A stretch of DNA of 64,000 bases, from assembly GCA_032718475.1 (NCBI GenBank), contig JAUCBJ010002686.1, positions 36,707-100,706 of the forward strand, in the 5' to 3' direction. A model generated the notes under the pieces. The model had not been told where the DNA came from, made no database searches, and worked only from the letters and a program-made list of their open reading frames with translations. Each line of letters begins with the position of its first letter. Within the stretch, counting starts at the first letter, position 1. Shown here piece by piece: positions 17,150 to 48,420 of the stretch. The position numbers were made by a program, and so were the translations under genes. The stretch is from Nemertoderma westbladi. Lineage: Eukaryota > Animalia > Xenacoelomorpha.

Positions 17150-17880
17150 CTCTAACTAACTCCCCCTTTCTCTTCCCACTAACTCTCACTTTTCTCCCCA
17201 CTAACTCCCCCTTTCTCTTCCCACTAACTCCCCCCTTTATCTCCCCAATAACTCCCCTTTTCCTCTCCCCAATAACTCCCCCCTTCTCTCACCACTATCT
17301 CCCACCTTTCTTCCCAATAACTCCCCCTTTCTCTCCCCTGTAACTCCCCCTTTCTCTCCCCAAAAACTCCCCCTTTCAGTCCCCACGAACTCCCCCTTTC
17401 TATCCCCACGAACTCCCCCTTTATCTCCCCAATAACTCCCCCTTTTCTCTCCCCACTAACTCCCTCTTTCTCTCCCCACTAACTCCGACCTTTCTGTCCC
17501 CACGAACTCCCCCTTTCTCCTCTCCCCACTAACTCCCCCTTTCTCTTCCCACTAACTCCCCCCTTTATCTCCCCAATAACTCCCCTTTTCCTCTCCCCAA
17601 TAACTCCCCCCTTCTCTCACCACTATCTCCCACCTTTCTTCCCAATAACTCCCCCTTTCTCTCCCCTGTAACTCCCCCTTTCTCTCCCCAAAAACTCCCC
17701 CTTTCAGTCCCCACGAACTCCCCCTTTCTGTCCCCACGAACTCCCCCTTTCTCCTCTCCCCACTAACTCCCCCTTTCTCTCCTCACGATCTCCCCATTTA
17801 TCTCCCCAATAATTCCCCCTTTTCTCTCCCCACGAACTCCCACCCTTCTCTCCCCACTAACTCCCCTCGTTTCCCCCATT
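17150..17880 (+). repeat. Degenerate ~21-bp minisatellite (CTAACTCCCCCTTTCTCTCCCCA-like) with a 328-bp internal duplication, abutting the acceptor at 17884
   Basis: Direct reading; near-identical ORF-track peptides at 17224 and 17552 give the 328-bp offset. Confidence 0.9.
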
Positions 17881-20140: not shown

Positions 20141-21424
<1,284 letters not shown>

Positions 21425-26473: not shown

Positions 26474-29400
26474 ACGACCCACTTTCCTACACTAACGCAC
26501 CACTCATCACGCTATTGACCCACTTACCCACACAAACGACCCACTTTCCTACACTAACGCACCACTCATCACGCTATTGGCCCACTTACCCACACAAACG
26601 ACCCACTTTCCTACACTAACGTATCACTCATCACGCTATTGGCCCACTTACCCACACAAACGACCCACTTTCCTACACTAACGTATCACTCATCACGCTA
26701 TTGACCCACTTACCCACACAAACGACCCACTTTCCTACACTAACGCACCACTCATCACGCTATTGACCCACTTACCCACACAAACGACCCTCTTTCCTAC
26801 ACTAACGTACCACTCATCACGCTATTGGCCCACTTACCCACACAAACGACCCACTTTCCTACACTAACGCACCACTCATCACGCTATTGACCCACTTACC
26901 CACACAAACGACCCACTTTCCTACACTAACGCACCACTCATCACGCTATTGGCCCACTTACCCACACAAACGACCCACTTTCCTACACTAACGCACCACT
27001 CATTACGCTATTGACCCACTTACCCACACAAACGACCCACTTTCCTACACTAACGCACCACTCATCACGCTATTGACCCAGTTACCCACACAAACGACCC
27101 ACTTTCCTACACTAACGCACCACTCATCACGCTATTGACCCACTTACCCACACAAACGACCCACTTTCCTACACTAACGCACCACTCATCACGCTATTGA
27201 CCCAGTTACCCACACAAACGACCCACTTTCCTACACTAACGCACCACTCATCACGCTATTGACCCACTTACCCACACCTACGACCCACTTTCCTACACTA
27301 ACGCACCACTCATCACGCTATTGACCCAGTTACCCACACCTACGACCCACTTTCCTACACTAACGCACCACTCATCACGCTATTGACCCACTTACCCACA
27401 CCTACGACCCACTTTCCTACACTAACGCACCACTCATCACGCTATTGACCCACTTACCCACACCTACGACCCACTTTCCTACACTAACGCACCACTCATC
27501 ACGCTATTGACCCAGTTACCCACACAAACGACCCACTTTCCTACACTAACGCACCACTCATCACGCTATTGACCCACTTACCCACACCTACGACCCACTT
27601 TCCTACACTAACGCACCACTCATCACGCTATTGACCCACTTACCCACACCTACGACCCACTTTCCTACACTAACGCACCACTCATCACGCTATTGACCCA
27701 GTTACCCACACCTACGACCCACTTTCCTACACTAACGCACCACTCATCACGCTATTGACCCACTTACCCACACCTACGACCCACTTTCCTACACTAACGC
27801 ACCACTCATCACGCTATTGACCCAGTTACCCACACCTACGACCCACTTTCCTACACTAACGCACCACTCATCACGCTATTGACCCACTTACCCACACCTA
27901 CGACCCACTTTCCTACACTAACGCACCACTCATCACGCTATTGACCCAGTTACCCACACCTACGACCCACTTTCCTACACTAACGCACCACTCATCACGC
28001 TATTGACCCACTTACCCACACAAACGACCCACTTTCCTACACTAACGCACCACTCATCACGCTATTGACCCAGTTACCCACACAAACGACCCACTTTCCT
28101 ACACTAACGCACCACTCATCACGCTATTGACCCACTTACCCACACAAACGACCCACTTTCCTACACTAACGCACCACTCATCACGCTATTGACCTACTTA
28201 CCCACACAAACGACCCACTTTCCTACACTAACGCACCACTCATCACGCTATTGACCTACTTACCCACACAAACGACCCACTTTCCTACACTAACGCACCA
28301 CTCATCACGCTATTGACCCACTTACCCACACAAACGACCCACTTTCCTACACTAACGCACCACTCATCACGCTATTGACCCAGTTACCCACACAAACGAC
28401 CCACTTTCCTACACTAACGCACCACTCATCACGCTATTGACCCACGTACCCACACAAACGACCCACTTTCCTACACTAACGCACCACTCATCACGCTATT
28501 GACCCACTTACCCACACAAACGGCCCACTTTCCTACACTAACGCACCACTCATCACGCTATTGACCCACTTACCCACACAAACGACCCACTTTCCTACAC
28601 TAACGCACCACTCATCACGCTATTGACCCACTTACCCACACAAACGACCCACTTTCCTACACTAACGCACCACTCATCACGCTATTGACCCACTTACCCA
28701 CACAAACGGCCCACTTTCCTACACTAACGCACCACTCATCACGCTATTGACCCACTTACCCACACAAACGACCCACTTTACTACACTAACGCACCACCCA
28801 TCACGCTATTGACCCACTTACCCACACAAACGACCCACTTTCCTACACTAACGCACCACTCATCACGCTATTGACCCACTTACCCACACAAACGACCCAC
28901 TTTACTACACTAACGCACCACCCATCACGCTATTGACCCACTTACCCACACAAACGGCCCACTTTCCTACACTAACGCACCACCCATCACGCTATTGACC
29001 CACTTACCCACACAAACGACCCACTTTACTACACTAACGCACCACCCATCACGCTATTGACCCACTTACCCACACAAACGACCCACTTTCCTACACTAAC
29101 GCACCACTCATCACGCTATTGACCCACTTACCCACACAAACGGCCCACTTTCCTACACTAACGCACCACTCATCACGCTATTGACCCACTTACCCACACA
29201 AACGACCCACTTTACTACACTAACGCACCACCCATCACGCTATTGACCCACTTACCCACACAAACGACCCACTTTACTACACTAACGCACCACCCATCAC
29301 GCTATTGACCCACTTACCCACACAAACGACCCACTTTCCTACACTAACGCACCACTCCATCAGGCTATTGACCCACTTACCCACACAAACGGCCCACTTT

Positions 29401-29782
29401 CCTACACTAACGCACCACTCATCACGCTATTGACCCACTTACCCACACAAACGACCCACTTTCCTACACTAACGCACCACTCATCACGCTATTGACCCAC
29501 TTACCCACACAAACGACCCACTTTCCTACACTAACGCACCACTCATCACGCTATTGACCCACTTACCCACACAAACGACCCACTTTCCTACACTAACGCA
29601 CCACTCATCACGCTATTGACCCACTTACCCACACAAACGACCCACTTTCCTACACTAACGCACCACTCATCACGCTATTGACCCACTTACCCACACAAAC
29701 GACCCACTTTCCTACACTAACGCACCACTCATCACGCTATTAACCCACTTACCCACACAAACGGCCTACTTTCCTACACTAA
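26474..29782 (+). repeat. 62-bp minisatellite, ~53 copies, ending just upstream of the acceptor at 29843
   Basis: Unit ACGACCCACTTTCCTACACTAACGCACCACTCATCACGCTATTGACCCACTTACCCACACAA. Confidence 0.97.
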
Positions 29783-29843
29783 AGGCTTACTTTTCTACCC
29801 GAATGTTCCACTTCACACACTAACGGCCCACTTCCCCACCCAG

Positions 29844-30179
29844 TAGAACACGAAGTCGATACAAACGCATCGCCACGGATGAATCGACGACCCACATTCC
29901 ACGAGATTATCACGGATCGACACTCCCGTATTGGTGACGTCACTCAGTTCGAGTGCGAGATCGTGGGAGAGCAGCCGATGTCGGTGGGTTGGTACCACAA
30001 CGGAGTCTACATCGACCCGGATGGGACGGGACCGGTTACCGTCGTCGAGGACGGCATCATGCACGCGCTCATTATCGGCGCGGTGACTCGGGAACTGGCC
30101 GGTAAATACCAGGTTATTGCCGAGAACGAAATGGGGAGGGCGATATCCCAGGCGAAATTAGTGTTACTCGACGAGGAGG
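29844..30179 (+). CDS. TTN: Titin-like exon, 1 Ig domain
   Basis: acccag|TAGAA (NAGNAG alternative at 29847) ... GAGG|gtaggt; phase 1-1. Confidence 0.9.
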
Positions 30180-30711
30180 GTAGGTCGTGGTTATGGTAAC
30201 AGACGGACAATCTTTATTGCGGTTTCGGTTTATTCTCTTTATGGATCCGGTTGCTATAACCCTTCTATATTTCTTTCATCTGAATCTATTTAAACGCCAA
30301 TCCGTAATTAACTTCTTCAACTCCTTTGCTATAATGTATCTGTCTTCTAATTTGTTTCAACATTTTACTAAACTCTTTTGCTCTTTTGGCGGACAGGTGT
30401 AACCCTTTGCTTCACACATTTCTTGCGTTGAATCGCATTCTCTTTTGTTTAATTATAACAGTTTTAATTTGATTTATACATAATATCTATATTATATTTA
30501 TTGCAATAATTATGATGAACTGTTGAGTTATTGACTATAGCTATTCGAATTATCGATGGATTTTATGTTACCGGCCATAAATTAATTAGATTATTAGAGT
30601 TAATTGATGTATAATTAATAATGGATTACATGATGTATAATAATTGTCGAGACTTGGTCTACCTACTGTAAGGTAGGCAACGCACACAGACATTGTTTGT
30701 TTATCTTCTAG

Positions 30712-31170
30712 CTTCGAGTGTTTCCATGGCACCATCTCGTCCGAACCTCTCTATAAAAACGAATAAACCAATCGTTGTGAGACATTTAGATAACAAACAT
30801 TGCGCAGTCGGTGATTGGGTGCAATTCGAAACTGAAATACGTAACCTTGGCAACGACGGCCGCGTTACGTGGCTGTTCAGTGGAAAACCATTGGAGGTTT
30901 CGGATAATGTTACCATAATAACCGATGGTAACAACCACGCCCTCATACTGAAAGGTGTAGAACTCCACCAATACGGAGTGTACACAGTAAAAGGCGTTAA
31001 TGAGTACGGAAGTAGTAGCTCAGACGCGTCGCTAAGGGTTACGGGGCAAACAATAGGGACTGCGCATGATCGGAGTTCTGTGACGTCATATAAGTCGAGC
31101 GTAATTGAAGAAATTACGGAGGAAATTATTAGGACCAGTAGAACCAGCATGCTACCTAATACTACTAATG
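30712..31170 (+). CDS. TTN: Titin-like exon, 1 Ig domain plus linker
   Basis: ttctag|CTTCG ... AATG|gtaaga; phase 1-1. Confidence 0.9.
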
Positions 31171-31356
31171 GTAAGACTAAATAACTATATATCCCCTATG
31201 CCTTAGTGTCTCTTTGACTAAAATATATTTTGCATGACTATTCTGACTTATGAAGCATGTTGGAAACTGAAATCATTTTTTAAATATTTTATAAACTCTA
31301 TAATTTGCCACATCAGTGCTATTTAAACTATTTAATTAATTAATTTTTATTTTTAG

Positions 31357-31546
31357 ATGATAATGTTTTCCAAGACTGTGCTCTTGAATCTTCTAAATCG
31401 ATTGTTCTAGAATCTCAACCTATAGCGGGCCAATTAGAATTAACCCCCCCTCGCGTAACTCGCAGATTTGAAGATCACGTGACCACGGAAGGCAATCGTG
31501 TTGTCTTGGAATGCATGGCAACGGGTAACCCACCTCCAACCGCTAC
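31357..31546 (+). CDS. TTN: Titin-like exon, N-half of Ig domain
   Basis: ttttag|ATGAT ... GCTAC|gtaagt; phase 1-2; EGNRVVLECMATGNPPP. Confidence 0.88.
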
Positions 31547-32346
31547 GTAAGTCACTTAAATACCACATTTTATATATTGTGCAGGTTAACTTTCAACATA
31601 AAAGATACTTATCTGTCTTATTTGACTAAATGTGATTCATTATATTTCGTAATCTCACACGGCTGCGTTTAGGTGTCGTTAAGACATTGGCTCGATCCTC
31701 CAGTCCCTGTTTACTATTATGAAACTCATTTATCACAAATCGTAACCCATTGAATTCCTTTACACACGAATTAACAATAAAGAACTTTGGTGAAAAAATA
31801 TCGACTGTAACGATAAATTCCGTAGCAACACATAAAACTGCCGGCGTAATGGTTTCTTAAATCGTCCCCCAGGGCGGTAGCTATTTGCTTATTGTCAATA
31901 AACTGAATTTCCAGACAAACTAATCGAAATATCGACGAAATCGTGGCCGCTTGGTCGAGACTTCTATGAGGCACTTACCGACGCACTCCGGAGGTGTACA
32001 TCTTCAATTGATATTTTTTAATATCACAATTCTGATAATTTTACATTAAAGGTGGAATATTCCCGCTCCCCAACACCGCCTTCTTTTATTAACCTGCTCA
32101 ACAATTTGAAACTAATTTAAATTAAATAATTATAGTAAATTTTAATATAAATAATTGATTAAAATATAAAAATAGTAAATTAAATAATGTTTGTCCTATT
32201 TCATTTATTATATATAATAAATGTTTAAAGGTTTTTACAGGTATCATATTTTTCCATTGTCACTGTGCATTTAAACTTCTATTAAGTGAAGATAATAAAT
32301 CAATAATTTTACATTGGTTTTTGTTATTATATTCGTCTCATTGCAG

Positions 32347-32525
32347 GTGGTCAACCTCTGGTAAGCTGGTGAAGCCAGGAGATCGCGGGTACTCAACGAC
32401 TCATATTGGCGACAGATGTTGTCTGACCATAGAGAGCGCGGCGTTAAGCGATAGCGGCAGAGTGGCCTGTAGTCTTAGTAACAGCCAGGGCACATCGCAA
32501 TGCGCAGCTAATCTTATAGTTAAAG
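32347..32525 (+). CDS. TTN: Titin-like exon, C-half of Ig domain
   Basis: ttgcag|GTGG ... TAAAG|gtaggc; phase 2-1. Confidence 0.88.
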
Positions 32526-32833
32526 GTAGGCGGGTCAACAGCCTCCATGGCAGACTATATTTATTATAACAGAATCACATCATTTTATGATAACCCATGA
32601 TACCACCAATATTTTTTGACGATTTGGTGTGGAGAATGGTAACTACAGTGAGTTTTGAAAAAAATTATTTTGATTGTTTCCATGATAACGTATTTAAATT
32701 GTAAGAAAAAGTTAAAAATTCCATTGTTGAAAATGTTTTGACAGTAAAAGAGAAAATCTTCCTAAACTCTATTCCCGACTTTTAGTATTTTTTTACATCG
32801 CTAAATGTATTTTTTTCTTGTTTTACTTTTCAG

Positions 32834-33099
32834 CCTCACAGGAGCAAATTATTGGTAAACCCGAGATCATAAAAGTAGATCGCCGTATTGACCTAGTTGT
32901 CGGAGAGCCTCTGGTTCTGTCGTGTCGGTTGCGTTCTCGCGAGCCCCCCATGGTGACGTGGATGAAAGACGGCTTCCCATTGGACGGCAGTCGATACTCC
33001 GTCAATGTGGATGACGCCAGCGGCATCTACACGCTGTCTGGGGGCCCGTCCACTGTAGACGACAGCGGCCGATACTTATGTCGTGTCACTAATGGACAG
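32834..33099 (+). CDS. TTN: Titin-like exon, most of an Ig domain
   Basis: tttcag|CCTCA ... GACAG|gtttgt; phase 1-0. Confidence 0.9.
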
Positions 33100-33213
33100 G
33101 TTTGTATTTATTTTTCTTAAAATATATATTTATTTATTTATTTACTTTTGATGGTTTGTTCATTGGGGTTCCGTTTATTTTGATTCAAAGTTTCTGTTTT
33201 TATTCTCCTTTAG

Positions 33214-33369
33214 GGTGCAGTTCAGGCCTTTACAGACGTTGTCGTTTCCGATTATGTATCCGGGACCCTCGACCCTCCTAAATTTATCCAGCCAATCAGA
33301 AGCGTTGAAACTACGGAGGGCAACGAAGTCCGGTTTGAAGTAAGAGTGGCTGGATTTCCTTTACCACAG
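33214..33369 (+). CDS. TTN: Titin-like exon, Ig G-strand plus N-part of next Ig domain
   Basis: ctttag|GGTGC ... CCACAG|gttggt; phase 0-0; PPKFIQP...EGNEVRFEVRVAGFPLPQ. Confidence 0.9.
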
Positions 33370-34127
33370 GTTGGTTCCCTTGGTAACGCTGTTGCTAATG
33401 TAGATGTTTATGGCGGCGAGTAATGGTGCTATTATTACCATTAAGTAATATTATTATTATTTACAATGAAAATAATGATTTTCTTTTTGCTACGTGATTT
33501 ACACACCGTCAGAGTGTAACCTTCTCATTTCCCTTAATTTCGAATGCTAGTTGCTACAGATACGGGCATCAGCTCAACAGGCTCGGTGTCGGCCTCGGTA
33601 GAATATGATTACACACATTTACTTTATTTTGAATAATCCTCCAAAACAGAATAGCTAATCTTGAGTGCTCTTGATATTAAAAATATTTGTTGTAAGTCAC
33701 TTTTTTTATTTGACTAAAAAATAACACTTATTTGTCAACAAAAAAGTAATGTTAGTAATAATATTGCATTTAGATAGATAGCGCTGATGGTATCCACGGG
33801 TTATTTAATATTCTAGAATATTATAATATCATAAAAGGATAGAGAATATTATTATACTATCATCTTGCCTATTTTGCTATTTCGCTATCTGAAATAGCCG
33901 TAGATAAAAGTGAGAAGACTCACAACAAATAAAACGACGTAAGTGGTGGCAAAAAGTAACATTTTTTGTCTTCTTCTTTCTTATTTGTCTCGCTATACTC
34001 TCGCCAATTACAGTAATATAGCTCGACAAAAAATTCTACTATTTTTTTCCACCACTTAAATAGTTATAGTTCTCCATGTAGAGACTTCATAAATAACTCT
34101 CGTTGGTTGTCTATATTTCCTAAAATA

Positions 34128-37100
34128 CTGTGACTAACTCCCCTGACTTCTCTTTGTTGTCTAGGTTTCCTGACATCCTGTGACTAACTCCCCCGACTTC
34201 CCTATGACTAACTCCCCCGACTTCCCTATGACTAACTCCCCCGACTTCCCTATGACTATCTCCCCCAACTTCCCTGTGACTAACTCCTCCAACTTATCTT
34301 TAACGTCTAGGTTTCTTGGTTCCGAGAAGGACATCCTGTGACTAACTCCCCCGACTTCCCTATGACTAACTCCCCCAACTTTTCTTTAACGTCTAGGTTT
34401 CTTGGTTCCGAGAAGGACATCCTGTGACTAACTCCCCCGAGTTCCCTATGACTAACTTCCCCCTACTTCCCTTTGACTAACTCTCCCAACTTTTATTTAA
34501 CGTCTAGGTTTCTTGGTTCCGAGAAGGACATCCTATGACTAACTCCCCCAACTTCACTGTGACTAACTCCCCCAACTTATCTTTAACGTCTAGGTTTCCT
34601 TACATCCCGTGACTAACTCCCCCAACTTATCTTTATCATCTAGGTTTCTTGGTTCCGAGAGGGACATCCTGTGACTTCCCTCTAGTTCCCTATGACTAAC
34701 TCCCCCAACTTTTATTTAACGTCTAGGTTTCTTGGTTCCGAGAAGGACATCCTATGACTAACTCCCCCAACTTCCCTGTGACTAACTCCTCCAACTTATC
34801 TTTAACGTCTAGGTTTCTTGGTTCCGAGAAGGACATCCTGTGACTAACTCCCCCGAGTTCCCTATGACTAACTTCCCCCTACTTCCCTATGACTAACTCC
34901 CCCAACTTTTATTTAACGTCTAGGTTTCTTGGTTCCGAGAAGGACATCCTGTGACTTCCCCCTACTTCCCTATGACTAACTCCCCCAACTTTTCTTTAAC
35001 GTCTAGGTTTCTTGGTTCCGAGAAGGACATCCTATGACTAACTCCCCCAACTTCCCTGTGACTAACTCCCCCAACTTATCTTTAACGTCTAGGTTTCCTT
35101 ACATCCCGTGACTAACTCCCCCAACTTATCTTTATCATCTAGGTTTCTTGGTTCCGTGAGGGACATCCTTTGACTTCCCCCTACTTCCCTATGACTAACT
35201 CCCCCAACTTTTCTTTAACGTCTAGGTTTCTTGGTTCCGAGAAGGACATCCTGTGACTAACTCCCCCGACTTCCCTTTGACTAACTCCCCCAACTTATCT
35301 TTAACGTCTAGGTTTCCTGACATCCTGTGACTAACTCCCCCAACTTATCTTTATCATCTAGGTTTCTTGGTTCCGTGAGGGACATCCTGTGACTTCCCGC
35401 TACTTCCCTATGACTAACTCCCCCAACTTTTCTTTAACGTCTAGGTTTCTTGGTTCCGAGAAGGACATCCTGTGACTTCCCCCTACTTCCCTATGACTAA
35501 CTCCCCCAACTTTTCTTTAACGTCTAGGTTTCTTGGTTCCGAGAAGGACATCCTGTGACTAACTCCCCCGACTTCCCCGTGACTAACTCCCCCAACTTTT
35601 CTTTAACGTCTAGGTTTCTTGGTTCCGAGAAGGACATCCTGTGACTAACTCCCCCGACTTCCCTTTGACTAACTCCCCCAACTTATCTTTAACGACTAGG
35701 TTTCCTTACATCCCGTGACTAACTCCCCCAACTTATCTTTATCATCTAGGTTTCTTGGTTCCGTGAGGGACATCCTGTGACTTCCCCCTACTTCCCTATG
35801 ACTAACTCCCCCAACTTTTCTTTAACGTCTAGGTTTCTTGGTTCCGAGAAAGACATCCTGTGACTAACTCCCCCGACTTCCCTGTGACTAACTCCCCCGA
35901 CTTCCCTGTGACTATCTCCCCCAACTTCCTTGTGACTAACTCCCCCAACTTCCTTGTGACTAACTCCCCCAACTTATCTTTAACGTTTAGGTTTCTTGGT
36001 TCCGTGAGGGATATCCTGTGACTTCCCCCTACTTCCCTATGACTAACTCCCCCAACTTTTCTTTAACGTCTAGGTTTCTTGGTTCCGAGAAGGACATCCT
36101 GTGACTAACTCCCCCGACTTCCCTGTGACTAACTCCCCCAACTTATCTTTAACGTCTAGGTTTCTTGGTTCCGAGAAGGACATCCTGTGACTAACTCCCC
36201 CGACTTCCCTGTGACTAACTCCCCCGACTTCCCTGTGACTATCTCCCCCAACTTCCTTGTGACTAACTCCCCCAACTTATCTTTAACGTTTAGGTTTCTT
36301 GGTTCCGTGAGGGATATCCTGTGACTTCCCCCTACTTCCCTATGACTAACTCCCCCAACTTTTCTTTACGTCTAGGTTTCTTGGTTCCGAGAAGGACATC
36401 CTGTGACTAACTCCCCCGACTTCCCCGTGACTAACTCCCCCAACTTTTCTTTAACGTCTAGGTTTCTTGGTTCCGAGAAGGACATCCTGTGACTAACTCC
36501 CCCGACTTCCCCGTGACTAACTCCCCCAACTTTTCTTTAACGTCTAGGTTTCTTGGTTCCGAGAAGGACATCCTGTGACTAACTCCCCCGACTTCCCTGT
36601 GACTAACTCCCCCGACTTCCCTGTGACTATCTCCCCCAACTTCCTTGTGACTAACTCCCCCAACTTATCTTTAACGTTTAGGTTTCTTGGTTCCGTGAGG
36701 GATATCCTGTGACTTCCCCCTACTTCCCTATGACTAACTCCCCCAACTTTTCTTTAACGTCTAGGTTTCTTGGTTCCGAGAAGGACATCCTGTGACTAAC
36801 TCCCCCGACTTCCCTGTGACTAACTCCCCCAACTTATCTTTAACGTCTAGGTTTCTTGGTTCCGAGAAGGACATCCTGTGACTAACTCCCCCAACTTCCC
36901 TATGACTAACTCCCCCAACTTTTCTTTAACGTCTAGGTTTCTTGGTTCCGAGAAGGACATCCTATGACTAACTCCCCCGACATCCCTGTGACTAACTCCC
37001 CCAACTTATCTTGAACGTCTAGGTTTCTTGGTTCCGAGAAGGACATCCTGTGACTAACTCCCCCGACTTCCCTATGACTAACTCCCTCAACTTATCTTTA

Positions 37101-40100
37101 ACGTCTAGGTTTCTTGGTTCAGAGAGGGACATCCTGTGACTAACTCCCCCAACTGATCTTTATCGTCTAGGTTTACTGACATCTTTTGACTAACTCCCTC
37201 GACTTCCCTGTGACTAACTCCCCCAACTTATCTTTAACTTCTAGGTTTCTTGATTCCGAGAGGGACATCCCGTGACTAACTCCCCCAACTTCTCCTTGTT
37301 GTCTTGGTTTCCTTACATCCTGTGACTAACTCCCCCAACTTATATTTGTTGTCTAGGTTTCCTTACATCCCGTGACTAACTCCTCCCAACTTCTCCTTGT
37401 TGTCTAGGTTTCCTTACATCCCGTGACTAAATCCCCCCAACTTCTCCTTGTTGTCTAGGTTTCCTTACATCCCGTGACTAACTCCCCCAACTCCTCCTTG
37501 TTTTCTAGGTTTCCTGACATCCTGTGACTAACTCCCCCAACTTCTCCTTGTTGTCTAGGTTTCCTTACATCCCGTGACTAACTCCCCCAACTTATATTTG
37601 TTCTCTAGGTTTCCTTACATCCCGTGACTAACTCCCCCAACTTATATTTGTTCTCTAGGTTTCCTTACATCCCGTGACTAACTCCCCCAACTTCTCCTTG
37701 TTGTCTAGGTTTCCTGACATCCTGTGACAAACTCCCCCCAACTTATCTTTGTTGTATAGGTTTCCTTACATCCTGTGACAAACTCCCCCCAACTTATCTT
37801 TGTTGTCTAGGTTTCCTTACATCCCGTGACTAACTCCCCCAACTTCTCCTTGTTGTCTAGGTTTCCTTACATCCCGTGACTAACTCCCCCCAACTTCTCC
37901 TTGTTGTGTAGGTTTCCTTACATCACGTGACTAACTCCCCCAACTTCTCCTTGTTGTCTAGGTTTCCTTACATCCCGTGACTAACTCCCCCAACTTCACT
38001 GTGACTAACTCCTCCCAACTTCTCCTTGTTGTCTAGGTTTCCTTACATCCCGTGACTAACTCCCCCCAACTTCTCCTTGTTGTCTAGGTTTCCTTACATC
38101 CCGTGACTAACTCCCCCCAACTTCTCCTTGTTGTCTAGGTTTCCTTACATCCCGTGACTAACTCCCCCAACTTCTCCTTGTTGTCTAGGTTTCCTTACAT
38201 CCCGTGACTAACTCCCCCCAACTTCTCCTTGTTGTCTAGGTTTCCTTACATCCCGTGACTAACTCCCCCAACTTCTCCTTGTTGTCTAGGTTTCCTTACA
38301 TCCCGTGACTAACTCCCCCAACTTCTCTTTGTTGTCTAGGTTTCCTTACATCCCGTGACTAACTCCCCCAACTTCTCCTTGTTGTCTAGGTTTCCTTACA
38401 TCCCGTGACTAACTCCCCCAACTTCTCCTTGTTGTCTAGGTTTCCTTACATCCCGTGACTAACTCCCCCAACTTCTCCTTGTTGTCTAGGTTTCCTTACA
38501 TCCCGTGACTAACTCCCCCAACTTATCTTTGTTGTCTAGGTTTCCTTACATCCCGTGACTAACTCCCCCAACTTATCTTTGTTGTCTAGGTTTCCTTACA
38601 TCCCGTGACTAACTCCCCCCAACTTCTCCTTGTTGTCTAGGTTTCCTGACATCCTGTGACTAACTCCCCCAACTTCTCCTTGTTGTCTAGGTTTCCTTAC
38701 ATCCCGTGACTAACTCCCCCAACATCACTGTGACTAACTCCTCCCAACTTCTCCTTGTTGTCTAGGTTTCCTTACATCCCGTGACTAACTCCCCCCAACT
38801 TCTCCTTGTTGTCTAGGTTTCCTGACATCCTGTGACTAACTCCCCCAACTTCTCCTTGTTGTCTAGGTTTCCTTACATCCCGTGACTAACTCCCCCCAAC
38901 TTCTCCTTGTTGTCTAGGTTTCCTTACATCCCGTGACTAACTCCCCCAACTTCTCCTTGTTGTCTAGGTTTCTTACATCCTGTGACAAACTCCCCCAACT
39001 TATCTTTGTTGTCTAGGTTTCCTTACATCCCGTGACTAACTCCCCCCAACTTCTCCTTGTTGTCTAGGTTTCCTGACATCCTGTGACTAACTCCCCCAAC
39101 TTATCTTTGTTGTCTAGGTTTCTTTACATCCCGTGACTAACTCCCCCAACTTTTATTTGTTGTCTAGGTTTCTTACATCCCGTGACTAACTCCCCCAACT
39201 CCTCCTTGTTTTCTAGGTTTCCTGACATCCTGTGACTAACTCCCCCAACTTCTCCTTGTTGTCTAGGTTTCCTTACATCCCGTGACTAACTCCCCCAACT
39301 TATATTTGTTCTCTAGGTTTCCTTACATCCCGTGACTAACTCCCCCAACTTATATTTGTTCTCTAGGTTTCCTTACATCCCGTGACTAACTCCCCCAACT
39401 TCTCCTTGTTGTCTAGGTTTCCTGACATCCTGTGACAAACTCCCCCCAACTTATCTTTGTTGTATAGGTTTCCTTACATCCTGTGACAAACTCCCCCAAC
39501 TTATCTTTGTTGTCTAGGTTTCCTTAAATCCCGTGACTAACTCCCCCCAACTTCTCCTTGTTGTCTAGGTTTCCTGACATCCTGTGACTAACTCCCCCCA
39601 ACTTATCTTTGTTGTCTAGGTTTCTTGGTTCCGAGAGGGACATCCTGTGACTAACTCCCCCAACTTATCTTTGTTGTCTAGGTTTCCTGACATCCTGTGA
39701 CTAACTCCCCCCAACTTCTCCTTGTTGTCTAGGTTTCCTGACATCCTGTGACTAACTCCCCCCAACTTATCTTTGTTGTCTAGGTTTCTTGGTTCCGAGA
39801 GGGACATCCTGTGACTAACTCCCCCAACTTATCTTTGTTGTCTAGGTTTCCTTACATCCCGTGACTAACTCCCCCAACTTATCTTTGTTGTCTAGGTTTC
39901 CTTACATCCCGTGACTAACTCCCCCCAACTTCTCCTTGTTGTCTAGGTTTCCTGACATCCTGTGACTAACTCCCCCCAACTTATCTTTGTTGTCTAGGTT
40001 TCTTGGTTCCGAGAGGGACATCCTGTGACTAACTCCCCCAACTTATCTTTGTTGTCTAGGTTTCCTGACATCCTGTGACTAACTCCCCCAACTTATCTTT

Positions 40101-43100
40101 GTTGTCTAGGTTTCTTTACATCCCGTGACTAACTCCCCCAACTTTTATTTGTTGTCTAGGTTTCTTACATCCCGTGACTAACTCCCCCAACTCCTCCTTG
40201 TTTTCTAGGTTTCCTGACATCCTGTGACTAACTCCCCCAACTTCTCCTTGTTGTCTAGGTTTCCTTACATCCCGTGACTAACTCCCCCAACTTATATTTG
40301 TTCTCTAGGTTTCCTTACATCCCGTGACTAACTCCCCCAACTTATATTTGTTCTCTAGGTTTCCTTACATCCCGTGACTAACTCCCCCCAACTTCTCCTT
40401 GTTGTCTAGGTTTCCTGACATCCTGTGACTAACTCCCCCCAACTTATCTTTGTTGTCTAGGTTTCTTGGTTCCGAGAGGGACATCCTGTGACTAACTCCC
40501 CCAACTTATCTTTATCGTCTAGGTTTCTTGGTTCCGAGAGGGACATCCTGTGACTAACTCCCCCAACTTATCTTTGTTGTCTAGGTTTCCTTACATCCCG
40601 TGACTAACTCCCCCCAACTTCTCCTTGTTGTCTAGGTTTCCTTACATCCCGTGACTAACTCCCCCAACTTCTCCTTGTTGTCTAGGTTTCTTACATCCCG
40701 CGACTAACTCCCCCCAACTTCTCCTTGTTGTCTAGGTTTCCTGACATCCTGTGACTAACTCCCCCAACTTCTCCTTGTTGTCTAGGTTTCCTTACATCCC
40801 GTGACTAACTCCCCCCAACTTCTCCTTGTTGTCTAGGTTTCCTTACATCCCGTGACTAACTCCCCCAACTTCTCCTTGTTGTCTAGGTTTCTTACATCCT
40901 GTGACAAACTCCCCCAACTTATCTTTGTTGTCTAGGTTTCCTTACATCCCGTGACTAACTCCCCCCAACTTCTCCTTGTTGTCTAGGTTTCCTGACATCC
41001 TGTGACTAACTCCCCCAACTTATCTTTGTTGTCTAGGTTTCTTTACATCCCGTGACTAACTCCCCCAACTTTTATTTGTTGTCTAGGTTTCTTACATCCC
41101 GTGACTAACTCCCCCAACTCCTCCTTGTTTTCTAGGTTTCCTGACATCCTGTGACTAACTCCCCCAACTTCTCCTTGTTGTCTAGGTTTCCTTACATCCC
41201 GTGACTAACTCCCCCAACTTATATTTGTTCTCTAGGTTTCCTTACATCCCGTGACTAACTCCCCCAACTTATATTTGTTCTCTAGGTTTCCTTACATCCC
41301 GTGACTAACTCCCCCAACTTCTCCTTGTTGTCTAGGTTTCCTGACATCCTGTGACAAACTCCCCCCAACTTATCTTTGTTGTATAGGTTTCCTTACATCC
41401 TGTGACAAACTCCCCCAACTTATCTTTGTTGTCTAGGTTTCCTTACATCCCGTGACTAACTCCCCCCAACTTCTCCTTGTTGTCTAGGTTTCCTGACATC
41501 CTGTGACTAACTCCCCCCAACTTATCTTTGTTGTCTAGGTTTCTTGGTTCCGAGAGGGACATCCTGTGACTAACTCCCCCAACTTATCTTTGTTGTCTAG
41601 GTTTCCTGACATCCTGTGACTAACTCCCCCCAACTTCTCCTTGTTGTCTAGGTTTCCTGACATCCTGTGACTAACTCCCCCCAACTTATCTTTGTTGTCT
41701 AGGTTTCTTGGTTCCGAGAGGGACATCCTGTGACTAACTCCCCCAACTTATCTTTGTTGTCTAGGTTTCCTTACATCCCGTGACTAACTCCCCCAACTTA
41801 TCTTTGTTGTCTAGGTTTCCTTACATCCCGTGACTAACTCCCCCCAACTTCTCCTTGTTGTCTAGGTTTCCTGACATCCTGTGACTAACTCCCCCCAACT
41901 TATCTTTGTTGTCTAGGTTTCTTGGTTCCGAGAGGGACATCCTGTGACTAACTCCCCCAACTTATCTTTGTTGTCTAGGTTTCCTGACATCCTGTGACTA
42001 ACTCCCCCAACTTATCTTTGTTGTCTAGGTTTCTTTACATCCCGTGACTAACTCCCCCAACTTTTATTTGTTGTCTAGGTTTCTTACATCCCGTGACTAA
42101 CTCCCCCAACTCCTCCTTGTTTTCTAGGTTTCCTGACATCCTGTGACTAACTCCCCCAACTTCTCCTTGTTGTCTAGGTTTCCTTACATCCCGTGACTAA
42201 CTCCCCCAACTTATATTTGTTCTCTAGGTTTCCTTACATCCCGTGACTAACTCCCCCAACTTATATTTGTTCTCTAGGTTTCCTTACATCCCGTGACTAA
42301 CTCCCCCCAACTTCTCCTTGTTGTCTAGATTTCCTGACATCCTGTGACTAACTCCCCCCAACTTATCTTTGTTGTCTAGGTTTCTTGGTTCCGAGAGGGA
42401 CATCCTGTGACTAACTCCCCCAACTTATCTTTATCGTCTAGGTTTCTTGGTTCCGAGAGGGACATCCTGTGACTAACTCCCCCAACTTATCTTTGTTGTC
42501 TAGGTTTCCTTACATCCCGTGACTAACTCCCCCCAACTTCTCCTTGTTGTCTAGGTTTCCTTACATCCCGTGACTAACTCCCCCAACTTCTCCTTGTTGT
42601 CTAGGTTTCTTACATCCCGCGACTAACTCCCCCCAACTTCTCCTTGTTGTCTAGGTTTCCTTACATCCCGTGACTATTTCCCCCAACTTCTCCTTGTTGT
42701 CTAGGTTTCCTTACATCCCGTGACTAACTCCCCCCAACTTCTCCTTGTTGTCTAGGTTTCCTGACATCCTGTGACTAACTCCCCAAACTTATCTTTGTTG
42801 TCTAGGTTTCCTGACATCCTGTGACTAACTCCCCCAACTTATCTTTGTTGTATAGGTTTCCTTACATCCCGTGACTAACTCCCCCCAACTTCTCCTTGTT
42901 GTCTAGGTTTCCTGACATCCTGTGACTAACTCCCCCAACTTCTCCTTGTTGTCTAGGTTTCCTGACATCCTGTGACTAACTCCCCCAACTTATCTTTGTT
43001 GTATAGGTTTCCTTACATCCTGTGACTAACTCCCCCCAACTTCTCCTTGTTGTCTAGGTTTCCTGACATCCTGTGACTAACTTCCCCAACTTATCTTTGT

Positions 43101-43428
43101 TGTCTAGGTTTCCTTACATCCCGTGACTAACTCCCCCAACTTATCTTTGTTGTCTAGGTTTCCTTACATCCCGTGACTAACTCCCCCCAACTTCTCCTTG
43201 TTGTCTAGGTTTCCTGACATCCTGTGACTAACTCCCCCCAACTTATCTTTGTTGTCTAGGTTTCCTTACATCCCGTGACTAACTCCCCCCAACTTCTCCT
43301 TGTTGTCTAGGTTTCTTCCCTATGACTAACTCCCCCGACTTCCTTGCGACTAACTCCCCCAACTTATCTTTAACGTCTAGGTTTCTTGGTTCCGAGAAGG
43401 ACATCCTGTGACTAACTCCCCCGACTTC
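34128..43428 (+). repeat. ~9.3-kb compound tandem array (~19-, 50- and 59-80-bp units) derived from the acceptor and 5' end of exon 43381; ~1.9-kb higher-order period
   Basis: Units GTGACTAACTCCCCCAACTTCTCCTTGTTGTCTAGGTTTCCTTACATCCC and ...TTAACGTCTAGGTTTCTTGGTTCCGAGAAGGACATCCT. Identical ORF-track peptides at 39616 and 41535 give a 1919-bp offset. Confidence 0.97.
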
Positions 43429-43561
43429 CGTTTGTTGTCTCACGGCGACTCCCACGCACTGGTTATACGAGAGGCCTACCCTGAAGATTCTGGCAAAATA
43501 TCCTGTGTCATTTCCAACGCAGCCGGGGAATCTTCCTGTGTCGGCCAACTAATAGTTAAAG
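43381..43561 (+). CDS. TTN: Titin-like exon, C-part of Ig domain
   Basis: gtctag|GTTTCTTGG ... AAAG|gtaatc; phase 0-1; VSWFREGHPVTNSPDFRLL...AYPEDSGKISC completes the domain begun at 33214. Confidence 0.9.
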
Positions 43562-43747: not shown

Positions 43748-44200
43748 TGTCTGTGTTTGCTTGTCTGTTATTGGATTGTCTCTGTTTGTTCGTCTTTCTG
43801 TCTCTGTGTGTTTGCTTGTCTGTTGTCTCTGTTTGTTTGTCTTTCTGTCTCTGTGTGTTTGCTTGTCTGTTGTCTCTGTTTGTTTGTCTTTCTGTCTCTG
43901 TGTGTTTGCTTGTCTGTTGTCTCTTTTTGTTTGTCTTTCTGTCTCTGTGTGTTTGCTTGTCTGTTGTCTCTGTTTGTTTGTCTTTCTGTTTCTGTGTGTT
44001 TGCTTGTCTGTTGTCTCTGTTTGTTTGTCTTTCTGTCTCTGTGTGTTTGCTTGTCTGTTGTCTCTGTTTGTTTGTCTTTCTGTCTCTGTGTGTTTGCTTG
44101 TCTGTTGTCTCTGTTTGTTTGTCTTTCTGTCTCTGTGTGTTTGCTTGTCTGTTGTCTCTGTTTGTTTGTCTTTCTGTCTCTGTGTGTTTCTCTGTCTGTC
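43748..44200 (+). repeat. 47-bp UG/UC-rich minisatellite with an adenine-free unit, ~9 copies
   Basis: Unit GTCTCTGTTTGTTTGTCTTTCTGTCTCTGTGTGTTTGCTTGTCTGTT. Confidence 0.93.
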
Positions 44201-45109: not shown

Positions 45110-45232
45110 GCAATGTGACGGCAGTTAGTGACTCATCTAGTCAGCCACCAGTAGCAGTCCAACCACTTTCCGATGTCTCTGTTATGGAGGGAAAACCGGC
45201 AACCTTTTCATGTTTAATACAAGGCAGACCAG
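45110..45232 (+). CDS. TTN: Titin-like exon, N-part of Ig domain
   Basis: ttccag|GCAAT ... ACCAG|gtaaat; phase 1-1; PLSDVSVMEGKPATFSCLIQGRP. Confidence 0.88.
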
Positions 45233-46722
45233 GTAAATTGTAACACTTTGGATACACGGCAGACCAGGTAAATTGTAACACTTTGGATACAAGGCAGACA
45301 AGGTAAGTTATAACACTTTGGAAACAAGGCAGACCAGGTAAGTTGTAACACTTTGGATATAAGGCAGACTAGGTAAGTTGCGACACTTTGGATATAAGGC
45401 AGACAAGGTAAGTTGTAACACTTTGGATACAAGGCAGACAAGGTAAGTTGTAACACTTTGGATACAAGGCAGACAAGGTAAGTTGTAACACTTTGGATAT
45501 AAGGCAGACAAGGTAAGTTGTAACACTTTGGATATAAGGCAGACAAGGTAAGTTGTAACACTTTGGATATAAGGCAGACAAGGTAAGTTGTAACACTTTG
45601 GATACAAGGCAGACAAGGTAAGTTGTAACACTTTGGATATAAGGCAGACAAGGTAAGTTGTAACACTTTGGATACAAGGCAGACAAGGTAAGTTGTAACA
45701 CTTTGGATATAAGGCAGACAAGGTAAGTTGTAACACTTTGGATATAAGGCAGACAAGGTAAGTTGTAACACTTTGGATACAAGGCAGACAAGGTAAGTTG
45801 TAACACTTTGGATACAAGGCAGACAAGGTAAGTTGTAACACTTTGGATACAAGGCAGACAAGGTAAGTTGTAACACTTTGGATATAAGGCAGACTAGGTA
45901 AGTTGTAACACTTTGGATACAAGGCAGACAAGGTAAGTTGTAACACTTTGGATACAAGGCAGACAAGGTAAGTTGTAACACTTTGGATACAAGGCAGACA
46001 AGGTAAGTTGTAACACTTTGGATACAAGGCAGACAAGGTAAGTTGTAACACTTTGGATACAAGGCAGACAAGGTAAGTTGTAACACTTTGGATACAAGGC
46101 AGACAAGGTAAGTTGTAACACTTTGGATATAAGGCAGACAAGGTAAGTTGTAACACTTTGGATACAAGGCAGACAAGGTAAGTTGTAACACTTTGGATAC
46201 AAGGCAGACAAGGTAAGTTATAACACTTTGGAAACAAGGCAGACCAGGTAAGTTGTAACACTTTGGATATAAGGCAGACTAGGTAAGTTGCAACACTTTG
46301 GATACAAGGCAGACAAGGTAAGTTATAACACTTTGGAAACAAGGCATACAAGGTAAGTTGTAACACTTTGGATACAAGGCAGACAAGGTAAGTTGTAACA
46401 CGTTGGATATAAGGCAGACCAGGTAAGTTGTAACACTTTGGATACAAGGCAGACAAGGTAAGTTGTAACACTTTGGATATAAGGCAGACAAGGTAAGTTG
46501 TAACACTTTGGATACAAGGCAGACAAGGTAAGTTGTAACACTTTGGATATAAGGCAGACTAGGTAAGTTGCAACACTTTGGATACACGGCAGACAAGGTA
46601 AGTTATAACACTTTGGAAACAAGGCAGACCAGGTAAGTTGTAACACTTTGGATACAAGGCAGACAAGGTAAGTTGTAACACTTTGGGTATAAGGCAGACA
46701 AGGTAAGTTGTAACACTTTGGA
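45217..46722 (+). repeat. 35-bp tandem array (~43 copies) duplicating the exon 3' end and splice donor
   Basis: Unit CAAGGCAGACAAG|GTAAGTTGTAACACTTTGGATA; the first unit overlaps the coding exon end. Confidence 0.97.
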
Positions 46723-47500
46723 TTGTAACGCTTATTTTTGAAATTGATACATTTCATAAATTAGACCGACAGGCTGACTTACAGGTTATATTTATAACAA
46801 TTTGTTCTGGTTCCGGACACTAATTGACACGCTCCACATTATATTTCCCAACCAAACTTACCTACTTTCCAACCAACAGGCAACGGATGAGTGTATTTTA
46901 TTTATTACTATGCATTAGAGCGATGTAATTATCCTTATTATATGCGATACCGGTCGCCGTTTGTAAAGTTAACGAGAAACTCATCTTCGCCGCATCCTGC
47001 AACCTTCCTGTTTAGCTGTCGGGGGCTGGCTGGGTCGATAACAATGATTAACTCTTATTATTTGCTTTCCTAAAATTATATTTGTAAAGAAATTCAATTT
47101 ATTTTCACCATTTATATTTCATGATTGTAATTTATTATGCCTTGGAAATGCCATTTCAAGTTCGAAGGTTGATTGTCATATGAACTATGAGGGTTTGGTT
47201 TGTTTGTAGTTGAATCTACTCCAAACATAACAGAACCCTGAATAAATTCCAAAATTATAAAAGCCCGAAAGCCACTTATTAAGATGGACATTTTCAAGTT
47301 TTAAAAACGATTCCTGCGGTTTCCAATTAAATTAATGGAATTAATCATGTTTGAGAGAAGCTTTTCTGTCTGCTTACTACCTTTGGCTTAGCCCAGGTTA
47401 TATTGAAACTGAAATCCGCTTTAGACAAACTGACAGACAGGCAGCCTGTCAATAACAATTGTTTAATAATTAATTAATTAAATATTTCGTTGTGTTGCAG

Positions 47501-47692
47501 AACCGGAAATTATTTGGACTGTTAACGGTAACCGGATCCGACCTTCGAAGTATTTCCGGATTAACCGGACACCGGACGGGACGTGTCGGCTTCATCTGTC
47601 GGAATGTTTCCCGGAAGACTCCGGACAGTATGTATGCGAGGCGCGGAATACCGCCGGAGTTGCCAGTACTGCTGGTTTCCTAACAGTGGAAG
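47501..47692 (+). CDS. TTN: Titin-like exon, C-part of Ig domain (frame stays open to 47895)
   Basis: ttgcag|AACCG ... GGAAG|gtacga; phase 1-1; IRPSKYFRI...CFPEDSGQYVCEARN. Confidence 0.88.
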
Positions 47693-48091
47693 GTACGAAG
47701 GTTAACCCTAGTCGCGGAAACTTTGCGAAGCGACCAGCCAATACCGTAGCAGTTGGGTCACGTAGGGAGGTTAATGTTGTCTGTAGTGTGCAGCATTCAG
47801 AGAGTACCGGTAGGGTCGAGTCGAGCAGTACTAGTGTGAGGAAGTTTAGTTTATCTGGAGGGAAACTGAAAGAGAAACCAGTAAGTAGCAGTTAAGTATA
47901 ATCGTGTTGGCTATCTGAGATGGACGACTTTAATGCAATATTGCATCCGGGGCATCCGGCAATCTGTAATAACTGGAACTGCTGCTTCTGGTGTTTGTGT
48001 TAGCTCATGGACTTCTAGAACATTAATTAATACCTGGATTATAAACATTTCTTAATAATATACAATGTAAATGTTTAGAGACATCCCTCTT

Positions 48092-48420
48092 TACGGAGCC
48101 CCAAATAAGACATGAAATCCTATTTTTTTCACTTTTAGTATGCATGTCCGATATCTCAATAAATTGAGGTCGAGAGTGTCGGATGAAAGACCCTTCTGCG
48201 TTGGCTGATTGCGGTCGATTATTTCCATTTTTTCAATCACCCAGGTGAAAAACATTTATCACCCGGGTGAAAAACATAAAAAAATGGAAATAATTGGCCG
48301 CAATCAGCCAACGTAGAAGTGTCTTACATCCGACACTCTCGACCTCAATATATTGAGATATCGGACATGCATACTAAAGTGAAAAAAAATAGGATTTCAG
48401 GTCTTATTTTGGGCTCCGTA
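48092..48420. mobile_element. MITE / non-autonomous DNA transposon with ~140-bp terminal inverted repeats and flanking TA
   Basis: TACGGAGCCCCAAATAAGACATGAAATCC... is mirrored by ...GGATTTCAGGTCTTATTTTGGGCTCCGTA; the centre has a 20-bp direct duplication. Confidence 0.88.

What the first reader, a model, noticed from the sequence alone, without database searches (positions are those of the whole stretch)
34128..43561. 9-kb array of complete 3' splice sites (branch point, pyrimidine tract, AG|GT) copied from the downstream exon junction; possible recursive-splicing ladder
Seen: the intron between 33369 and 43381 is filled with tandem copies of its own acceptor and exon start. Nearly every unit reads TGACTAAC (consensus branch point), then a pyrimidine tract, then TCTAG|GTTTC, roughly 150-170 times by manual estimate. 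Some copies (e.g. AG at 34309-34310) match the true junction exactly from -20 to +49. Only the last copy continues into the Ig domain (VSWFREGHPVTNSPDFRLL); the 34310 copy, which I translated, reaches a stop within ~40 codons. The true acceptor's branch point (GACTAAC, ~43348) matches the exon codons GTG-ACT-AAC. Established: YAG|GT junctions are the signature of recursive (zero-length exon) splicing, and tandem duplication of AGGT is a proposed route to intron gain. Inference: splicing exon 33369 (ending CAG) to any copy regenerates CAG|GTTTC, similar to the weak GTTTG/GTTGG donors this gene already uses. The intron may therefore be removed stepwise, or only the last site may be chosen through exon definition. 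Either way it is an extreme natural test of 3' splice-site choice.
Basis: partly seen in the sequence, partly recalled or inferred. Interest (0 to 1): 0.88.

Follow-up and report, generated by a model that had tools for sequence, protein, structure and literature searches.

The report
Giant splice-acceptor "mirage" in titin-like gene
An intron of an animal titin-like muscle gene holds about 150 tandem copies of the next exon's start, each with a splice-acceptor signal built from the exon's own codons; the cell likely splices only at the last copy and ignores the rest, which makes this an unusually large example of a repeat type already described in lancelets rather than a stepwise-splicing ladder.

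Summary
The array is real: 152 acceptor-like TAG copies plus the true one in intron 33370-43380 of a titin-like gene (36-exon model, 3,331 codons, no stop). 143 of the 153 have a CTAAC branch point 27-29 nt upstream with no AG between. The basic unit is AG plus the first 60 nt of the next exon, so the branch point and pyrimidine tract, including those of the working acceptor, come from conserved Ig-domain codons (V-T-N-S-P-D-F-R). The recursive-ladder reading is poorly supported. The regenerated donors (CAG|GTTTCT/C) lack both +3A and +5G, which 0 of this gene's 36 donors do. The array holds no strong donor, and every copy read as an acceptor stops within 62 codons. The class is known: 'mirage' minisatellites of amphioxus, with human parallels (F7, CBS 844ins68), where the site next to the intact exon is used. 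The same gene has a 43-copy donor array. No RNA run was listed, so splicing is untested. A 1,919-nt near-perfect internal duplication leaves the exact length uncertain. Distinctive points: size, and an acceptor made from coding DNA. There is a weak hint that the intron itself arose by duplication.

The parts
33214..33369 (+). Upstream exon (156 nt), ends CAG; the intron after it is phase 0
   Evidence: In the stop-free 36-exon model
33370..34097 (+). Donor GTTGGT and the AT-rich, non-repeat 5' part of the intron. Its first bases share an 8-nt word (TTGGTTCC) with the head of the downstream exon; significance is borderline
34098..34127 (+). Decayed left-edge unit; the AG|G position reads AT|A
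   Evidence: Local score 46 against at most 37 in 500 windows of the non-repeat intron; TRF row 34098-34200
34128..37264 (+). 5' domain of the array: AG-to-AG segments of 50-158 nt built from 62-, 50-, 24- and 21-nt pieces. It holds all four copies that best match the true junction (34310, 34812, 36159, 36850)
37265..43342 (+). 3' domain of the array: about 119 units of mostly 49-51 nt, some of 62 nt, each with branch point, pyrimidine tract and TAG|GTTT
   Evidence: TRF period 50, 118.6 copies, score 6177
38783..42661 (+). Higher-order duplication with period 1,919 nt and 2 mismatches: a very recent duplication or an assembly over-expansion
43323..43380 (+). Inferred working 3' splice site: two CTAAC branch-point words (branch A at about -52 and -28), pyrimidine tract, TAG. 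Homologous to exon nt +28 to +60
   Evidence: 25 of 33 ungapped matches at offset 62; AG-free zone of 68 nt; sequence
43379..43440 (+). Source of the 62-nt unit: AG plus the first 60 nt of the exon (V-S-W-F-R-E-G-H-P-V-T-N-S-P-D-F-R-L-L-S)
   Evidence: S and D-F are the commonest residues at those columns in 40 homologous Ig domains
43381..43561 (+). Downstream exon (181 nt): C-terminal two thirds of an I-set Ig domain like residues 135-193 of solved titin Z1Z2 chains; donor AAG|GTAATC
   Evidence: Pfam I-set E 1.2e-11; PDB 2a38 domain E 1e-8
45217..46723 (+). Sister array in the same gene: 43 copies of a 35-nt unit across the donor at 45232/45233. 41 copies carry the fuller consensus GTAAGT; the in-frame first site is GTAAAT
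17155..17866 (+). Array of branch-point-plus-pyrimidine units (23 nt; 10 CTAAC, 2 AG) ending 19 nt before the acceptor at 17885
26474..29782 (+). 62-nt array with one CTAAC per unit (53), ending 62 nt before the acceptor at 29844

Best explanation
This is a very large splice-junction ('mirage') minisatellite whose unit is the acceptor AG plus the first 60 nt of the next exon, and the cell likely uses only the last AG and removes the other 152 copies with the intron in one step. Shown: the unit anatomy; that the tail of each unit (exon codons V-T-N-S-P-D-F-R-L-L-S) supplies a branch point and pyrimidine tract for the AG of the next unit; that the working acceptor is built this way too; that only the last AG keeps the frame open. 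Inferred: one 62-nt tandem duplication created a ready-made acceptor from coding DNA, which made the duplication tolerable. Slippage or unequal exchange then amplified it and threw off 50-, 24- and 21-nt deletion variants and kb-scale blocks. Inferred: the last AG wins because it alone is followed by the intact exon and the real donor 181 nt away, while the array offers no strong donor to pair with the other copies. Predicted: a small leak to the nearest copies (exons of 251, 302, 353 nt) gives stop codons and is cleared by nonsense-mediated decay. The array likely has no selected function.
For: Unit classes and counts. Exon origin: 25 of 33 ungapped at offset 62; the commonest units match the exon at 14 of the last 17 positions; the codons are ancestral, since S and D-F are the commonest residues there in 40 homologous domains (S 35, D 31, F 27 of 40) and titin has the same motif. 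Only 33369-43381 gives the stop-free frame; all 152 copies stop within 62 codons. No strong donor in the array. Copies are as good as the true site in sequence: 54 of 152 score at least as high, so position has to decide. Precedent: amphioxus mirages do not disturb splicing (PMC3087553, passages; PMC3902484, one passage). The distal copy is favoured in the 68-bp CBS intron 7/exon 8 duplication (PMC2630376, passage). The exon-adjacent site is used in the F7 VNTR even against stronger copies (PMC1557585, abstract and passages). The same gene has a donor array and other arrays near splice sites: 5 of 9 large arrays lie within 100 nt of a site. Signs of minisatellite turnover: 61 segment types among 152, two regional domains, a decayed edge.
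Against: No transcript was examined, so use of the last AG rests on the reading frame and on precedent. Published arrays that I saw are far smaller (3-6 units in BflGb6, up to 25 pseudo-sites in human 6-16), so silence at 150 copies is an extrapolation. In human 6-16 and CBS intron 13 the two nearest pseudo-sites are used. The nearest copies here would give exon sizes within this gene's range of 117-459 nt, plus one of 1,737, so exon definition alone does not exclude them. Counting matches to the recalled U1 consensus from -3 to +8, the regenerated donors reach 5-7, inside the real range of 5-9. The closeness of arrays to splice sites is weak statistically: P=0.03 with this array, 0.08 without. 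The matrices rest on 34-36 hand-annotated sites.
Confidence: 0.72

Rival explanations
1. Recursive ladder: exon 33369 is spliced to an internal copy, CAG|GTTTC is rebuilt as a donor, and the intron is removed in steps.
For: 151 of 152 copies are AG|GT. The upstream exon ends in CAG, the best exonic donor context. The intron is 10,011 nt, at the size where recursive splicing is described (>10 kb, PMC8758631, passages). In Drosophila kuz even poor ratchet donors were used at a minor level (PMC8605326 section 7), so occasional rescue by re-splicing is possible.
Against: Regenerated donors score 2.1 and -0.3 bits against 4.2 or more for 35 of 36 real donors, and 0 of 36 real donors lack both +3A and +5G. 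The commoner type, GTTTCC (97 of 152), is the weaker one, so the array shows no drift towards a better donor. There is no strong downstream donor to define an RS-exon. Known introns carry 1-7 sites kilobases apart, not 152 sites mostly about 50 nt apart. The GT is simply the first codon of the exon (Val), and 7 of 37 acceptors here are AG|GT.
Confidence: 0.06
2. Dose control: the copies act as regulated poison acceptors or as a sink for branch-point and pyrimidine-tract binding factors, so that copy number tunes the amount of the long titin-like isoform.
For: Every copy leads to a stop; 142 of 152 have textbook branch-point spacing; three arrays in this gene are rich in CTAAC. A possible terminal exon at 23269-23692 would give isoforms without this region.
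Against: No conservation data. Splice signals are no better kept than neighbouring bases: most columns of the unit are near-invariant, as homogenisation alone would give. In the amphioxus cases no aberrant mRNA was reported.
Confidence: 0.1
3. Origin variant, compatible with the best reading for present-day splicing: there was no older intron here. Duplication of the exonic AG|GT plus 60 nt created the intron in one step (Rogers model); the donor was then improved to GTTGGT and AT-rich DNA accumulated.
For: The unit holds no recognisable intron-derived base beyond AG, which the upstream exon's last codon (CAG) could supply. A 62-nt unit just exceeds the ~60-nt minimum quoted for such introns, and a duplication that brings its own branch point and tract is shown for ATP2A1 (PMC3265369, passages). 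The intron start shares TTGGTTCC with the exon head and ranks 1-3 of 35 introns in 16 of 20 settings. No clear older acceptor was found at the array's left edge: the nearest TAG candidate scores -1.1 bits.
Against: The similarity is post hoc and fragile: p 0.003-0.63 against mismatched intron-exon pairs and 0.03-0.68 against shuffles. GTTGGT is also the donor at 55488. 728 nt of unrelated intron lie between the donor and the array, with three AGs that score 4.6-6.5 bits as acceptors (33559, 33816, 34081), any of which could be an older site. The first intron would have had the weak GTTTCT donor. Orthologous gene structures could not be read.
Confidence: 0.2
4. Assembly artefact: the array is wholly or largely an over-expanded repeat.
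For: A 1,919-nt block is repeated with only 2 differences; no reads or second assembly could be checked.
Against: 61 distinct segment types in ordered domains, point variants, a decayed edge, no N in the window, and other arrays of the same style in the gene. Removing the 1,919-nt block would still leave about 7.4 kb. I put the chance that the length is overstated at about 0.25, and that the feature is false at about 0.03.
Confidence: 0.03

Closest known systems
Amphioxus 'mirage' minisatellites (Adh3, globins BflGb6/BflGb9, troponin C, PGBD5). PMC3087553: passages of abstract, section 16 and references. PMC3902484: one passage. The original Adh3 paper (Canestro 2002, PMC117041) was seen only as a reference.
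   Same: Tandem repeats across an exon-intron boundary that multiply splice signals; both 5' and 3' boundaries affected; unit lengths overlap (10-72 bp at Adh3); cluster edges escape homogenisation, as here, where the true acceptor resembles the far 5' domain rather than its neighbours.
   Different: About 150 copies against 3-6 in BflGb6. The BflGb6 unit carries the 3' end of the old intron; here only AG precedes the exon part, and branch point and tract are exon-made. Length instability and clean splicing were tested there, not here.
Human CBS 844ins68 (PMC2630376, passage of the introduction)
   Same: A 68-bp duplication of an intron/exon junction, nearly the size of this 62-nt unit; the distal site is strongly favoured and normal mRNA results.
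   Different: Two copies only.
Human F7 intron 7 VNTR, and the 6-16, CBS intron 13, lamin B2 and PDGF VNTRs (PMC1557585, abstract and passages)
   Same: Minisatellites that repeat a splice site; the site next to the exon is used, even against stronger copies in F7. A direct parallel of the donor array at 45217-46723.
   Different: Described there as repeated donors, 5-25 copies; some leak to the two nearest copies in 6-16 and CBS.
Intron gain by tandem duplication (Rogers model): ATP2A1 (PMC3265369, passages); potato RdRp (PMC4974935, first fifth of the text)
   Same: Coding sequence supplies AG|GT, a pyrimidine tract and a YTNAY branch point after duplication.
   Different: There the gain is shown by orthologues without the intron; here it is untested, and 728 nt of unrelated intron lie upstream.
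Recursive splice sites / ratchet points (PMC8605326, passages and section 7; PMC8758631, passages)
   Same: AG|GT after a pyrimidine tract inside an intron of about 10 kb.
   Different: Known sites have strong regenerated donors, a cryptic RS-exon donor, conservation and kb spacing; none of these is seen here.

Membership tests
Mirage minisatellite | Head-to-tail tandem repeat of minisatellite size | tested here: met
   Periods 24, 50, 62, 83-86 nt
Mirage minisatellite | Unit spans an exon-intron boundary | tested here: met
   62-nt unit equals 43379-43440; copies match the junction up to 33 nt upstream and 49 nt downstream
Mirage minisatellite | Splice signals are multiplied | tested here: met
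   152 extra TAGs; 143 of 153 with a spaced branch point; 54 of 152 score at least as high as the true acceptor
Mirage minisatellite | Concerted turnover with edges excluded | tested here: met
   Two domains, 61 segment types, a 1,919-nt block, decayed left edge; the best matches to the true acceptor all lie in the 5' domain
Mirage minisatellite | Length differs between alleles or cells | not testable with these tools
Mirage minisatellite | Normal mRNA is made; copies are not used | not testable with these tools
   No RNA holder was listed
Recursive splice site | Strong acceptor directly followed by GT | tested here: met
   151 of 152 copies are TAG|GT; acceptor scores 3.7-9.2 bits, median 6.3
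Recursive splice site | Strong regenerated donor | tested here: not met
   2.1 and -0.3 bits; neither +3A nor +5G, a state seen in 0 of 36 real donors
Recursive splice site | Cryptic RS-exon with a downstream donor | tested here: not met
   Best internal GT is CC|GTGAGG, 6 copies, 2.6 bits, which would give 13-nt exons
Recursive splice site | Junction reads, saw-tooth coverage, recursive lariats; conservation | not testable with these tools
   No RNA holder listed; no related genome at hand
Intron gain by tandem duplication (Rogers model) | Acceptor side derives from flanking coding sequence | tested here: met
Intron gain by tandem duplication (Rogers model) | Donor side derives from the same duplicated unit | tested here: inconclusive
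   8-nt shared word; p 0.003-0.68 by setting and null
Intron gain by tandem duplication (Rogers model) | Orthologues lack the intron | not testable with these tools
   Homologues were returned as proteins only

The most novel reading that the evidence does not exclude
The whole 10-kb intron was born when a 62-nt coding segment that happened to hold AG|GT, a perfect branch point and a pyrimidine tract was duplicated. The same segment then ran away to about 150 complete acceptors, and the weak rebuilt donors rescue a share of mis-spliced molecules by re-splicing. This would be intron birth with its source still legible, and a natural 150-step test of acceptor choice. The probability given is for the birth-by-duplication part; rescue by re-splicing at a level that matters I put near 0.1.
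Probability: 0.2. Interest if true: 0.6.

Novelty: new member of a known kind. Interest (0 to 1): 0.3.

Why it matters
If only the last of 153 near-equal acceptors is used, the locus shows how strongly exon context overrides local splice-site sequence, and it gives a natural minigene series for 3' splice-site choice, where the best-studied published case that I read (F7) concerns donors. It also shows a working acceptor that was assembled from Ig-domain codons, which bears on how introns and their boundaries arise. Against this, the class has been named since 2002, and unchecked notes of this scan report it in at least 11 other genomes, so the gain is one of degree.

Tried and rejected
No whole genome is held for this window, so I could not count such arrays genome-wide. 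RNA: no RNA holder listed for 29790-33400; this is no evidence either way, and no reads could be laid. A word-based homologue search with exon 12617-13072 found nothing among proteins of 267-2000 aa; the HMMER search did. A PDB search with 16454-16636 gave only two weak antibody hits. A 20-nt array word in metagenome contigs gave 1 match, in a locus with no tandem repeat; I took it as chance. Earlier findings by place and by sequence: nothing. Search for an older acceptor at the array's left edge: the stretch 34056-34098 aligns to the exon head no better than 5.7% of 5,301 intron windows, and the TAG at 34061-34063 scores -1.1 bits; inconclusive. My 17-nt left-edge comparison was out of register and is not used. 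RNA folding of 101-nt windows gave similar energies (-11 to -13 kcal/mol) for the true site and 5 copies, so structure does not single out the true site. G-quadruplex potential on the minus strand is modest in this array (17% of windows past the threshold) and high in 17155-17866 (87%); not followed up. Selection on splice signals inside the array cannot be told from homogenisation. Paper searches for larger arrays or exon-made branch points in mirages listed none by title or abstract start; the library lacks most subscription journals, so this is weak. No supplementary files were read; Additional file 4 of PMC3087553 (the BflGb6 alignment) could bear on how much intron its unit carries.

Full report
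Gene context. I annotated exons by hand from the sequence. Thirty-six exons from 504 to 58424 join into one frame of 3,331 codons without a stop. The protein is an Ig-repeat titin-like protein. A HMMER search with one exon ranked Saccoglossus kowalevskii titin-like XP_006823021.1 first. That protein was also the best hit in 9 of 12 windows of the model among the 166 proteins fetched, at 31-44% identity; the set is biased, since it came from that one search. The organism was not identified. The exon after the array matches the second Ig domain of solved titin Z1Z2 chains and Pfam I-set. The intron in question, 33370-43380, is 10,011 nt, phase 0, and the longest of 35.

The intron contains 153 acceptor-like TAGs, 152 copies and the true one. 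143 of them have a CTAAC with the branch A at -27 to -29 and no AG in between. The copy at 34310 matches the junction for 22 nt upstream and 49 nt downstream and stops after 38 codons. All 152 copies stop within 62 codons when read in the frame of the upstream exon. The array has a decayed left edge near 34098, a 5' domain of composite units and a 3' domain of about 119 units of mostly 50 nt. A 1,919-nt block is repeated with 2 differences, so the exact length is open; 61 segment types among 152 argue against a pure artefact.

What the unit is. The 62-nt unit equals the AG plus the first 60 nt of the downstream exon; the 50-, 24- and 21-nt pieces appear to be deletion variants of it. The 33 nt before the true AG match exon nt +28 to +60 at 25 positions without gaps, against at most 20 in 9,051 other exon windows. 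The commonest units match the exon at 14 of the last 17 positions. The direction is exon to intron: in the 40 best homologous domains the columns for S, D and F hold those residues 35, 31 and 27 times. So the codons for V-T-N read as a branch point and those for S-P-D-F-R-L-L-S as a pyrimidine tract once an AG follows them. The exon's own copy is followed by CA, not AG. The working acceptor is therefore made from coding DNA. That this made the first duplication tolerable is inference.

Recursive splicing. With a matrix from the gene's 36 donors, the rebuilt donors score 2.1 (GTTTCT, 53 copies) and -0.3 bits (GTTTCC, 97 copies). Real donors score 4.2-14.0 in 35 of 36 cases and 1.55 in one. None of the 36 lacks both +3A and +5G; the rebuilt ones lack both. 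AG|GT occurs at 7 of 37 annotated acceptors. Drosophila ratchet points tend to have strong donors and need a cryptic exon with a downstream donor (PMC8605326); the array's best internal GT scores 2.6 bits. Known recursive introns have 1-7 sites kilobases apart (PMC8758631). Two results point the other way. A plain count of matches to the recalled U1 consensus puts the rebuilt donors at 5-7, within the real range of 5-9, because of the exonic CAG. And poor ratchet donors were used at a minor level in kuz mutants. A ladder as the main route is unlikely; occasional rescue is not excluded.

How it most likely works. The copies are as good as the true site in sequence: 54 of 152 score at least as high, and folding does not single out the true site. 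Position must decide. Only the last AG is followed by the intact exon and a real donor 181 nt away. I infer selection of that AG through exon definition, with the array removed as intron. The nearest copies would give exons of 251, 302 and 353 nt, normal sizes for this gene, so some leak to stop-containing products is expected. The same logic applies 1.7 kb further on, where 43 copies of a donor follow the exon ending at 45232. There 41 copies have the fuller consensus GTAAGT and the in-frame first site is GTAAAT. Five of nine large intronic arrays in this gene lie within 100 nt of a splice site (P=0.03; 0.08 without this array).

Comparison with what is known. Tandem repeats across exon-intron boundaries are named mirages in amphioxus, and the RNA tests reported there found regular splicing (PMC3087553; PMC3902484). 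In human CBS a 68-bp duplication of an intron/exon junction is resolved by use of the distal site (PMC2630376). In F7 the exon-adjacent donor wins over stronger copies, while 6-16 and CBS intron 13 leak to the two nearest copies (PMC1557585). A duplication of coding DNA that brings its own tract and branch point is shown for ATP2A1 (PMC3265369). I reached the mirage reading before opening the scan's earlier notes. Those notes, unchecked, list 77 such findings in at least 11 genomes. This array meets every mirage criterion that I could test. It differs in size, about 150 copies against at most 25 in the papers I saw, and in its exon-made acceptor. Searches listed no larger case, which is weak evidence.

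Origin of the intron. The intron's first bases share an 8-nt word with the head of the downstream exon. The pair ranks 1-3 of 35 in 16 of 20 settings, but p ranges from 0.003 to 0.63 against mismatched pairs and from 0.03 to 0.68 against shuffles. No clear older acceptor was found at the array's left edge, though three AGs in the non-repeat part score 4.6-6.5 bits. Birth of the intron by duplication is possible (about 0.2) and needs orthologous gene structures.

Limits and verdict. The feature is real, is a new and extreme member of a known class, and is most likely passive. Interest 0.3.

Noticed in passing
window 45217-46723: 43-copy donor array (35-nt unit) across the exon end at 45232: 33 AAG|GTAAGT, 4 CAG|GTAAGT, 4 TAG|GTAAGT, 2 CAG|GTAAAT. 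The in-frame first site is the weaker type.
   Followed up: partly
window 17155-17866 and 26474-29782: C-rich arrays with CTAAC words that end 19 and 62 nt before acceptors. The first resembles the main array (ACTAAC then a C run) and has high G-quadruplex potential on the minus strand.
   Followed up: partly
window 43776-44199: 47-nt AG-free array ending 89 nt before the acceptor at 44288, within a 551-nt AG-free zone, the longest in the gene.
   Followed up: no
window 18523-19390, 20135-21424, 54312-54802, 56178-57633: Four more large intronic arrays, more than 200 nt from any annotated splice site.
   Followed up: no
window 10856-12094, minus strand: Intronless 412-codon frame nested in an intron of the titin-like gene, with a signal-peptide-like start and a hydrophobic stretch by eye; no Pfam match.
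   Followed up: partly
window 7576-9343 (minus) and 53240-53725 (plus): Broken frames that look by eye like two related non-LTR retrotransposon reverse-transcriptase remnants.
   Followed up: no
window 23269-23692 and 47501-47895: Frames that run on to a stop: a possible alternative last exon before the array, and a read-through ending past the donor at 47692.
   Followed up: no
window 58081-58311: 39-nt coding repeat that gives Ser/Arg/Pro-rich peptide repeats in the last modelled exon.
   Followed up: no
window about 48095-48420: Long inverted repeat seen by eye, possibly a MITE; not run through a repeat finder.
   Followed up: no
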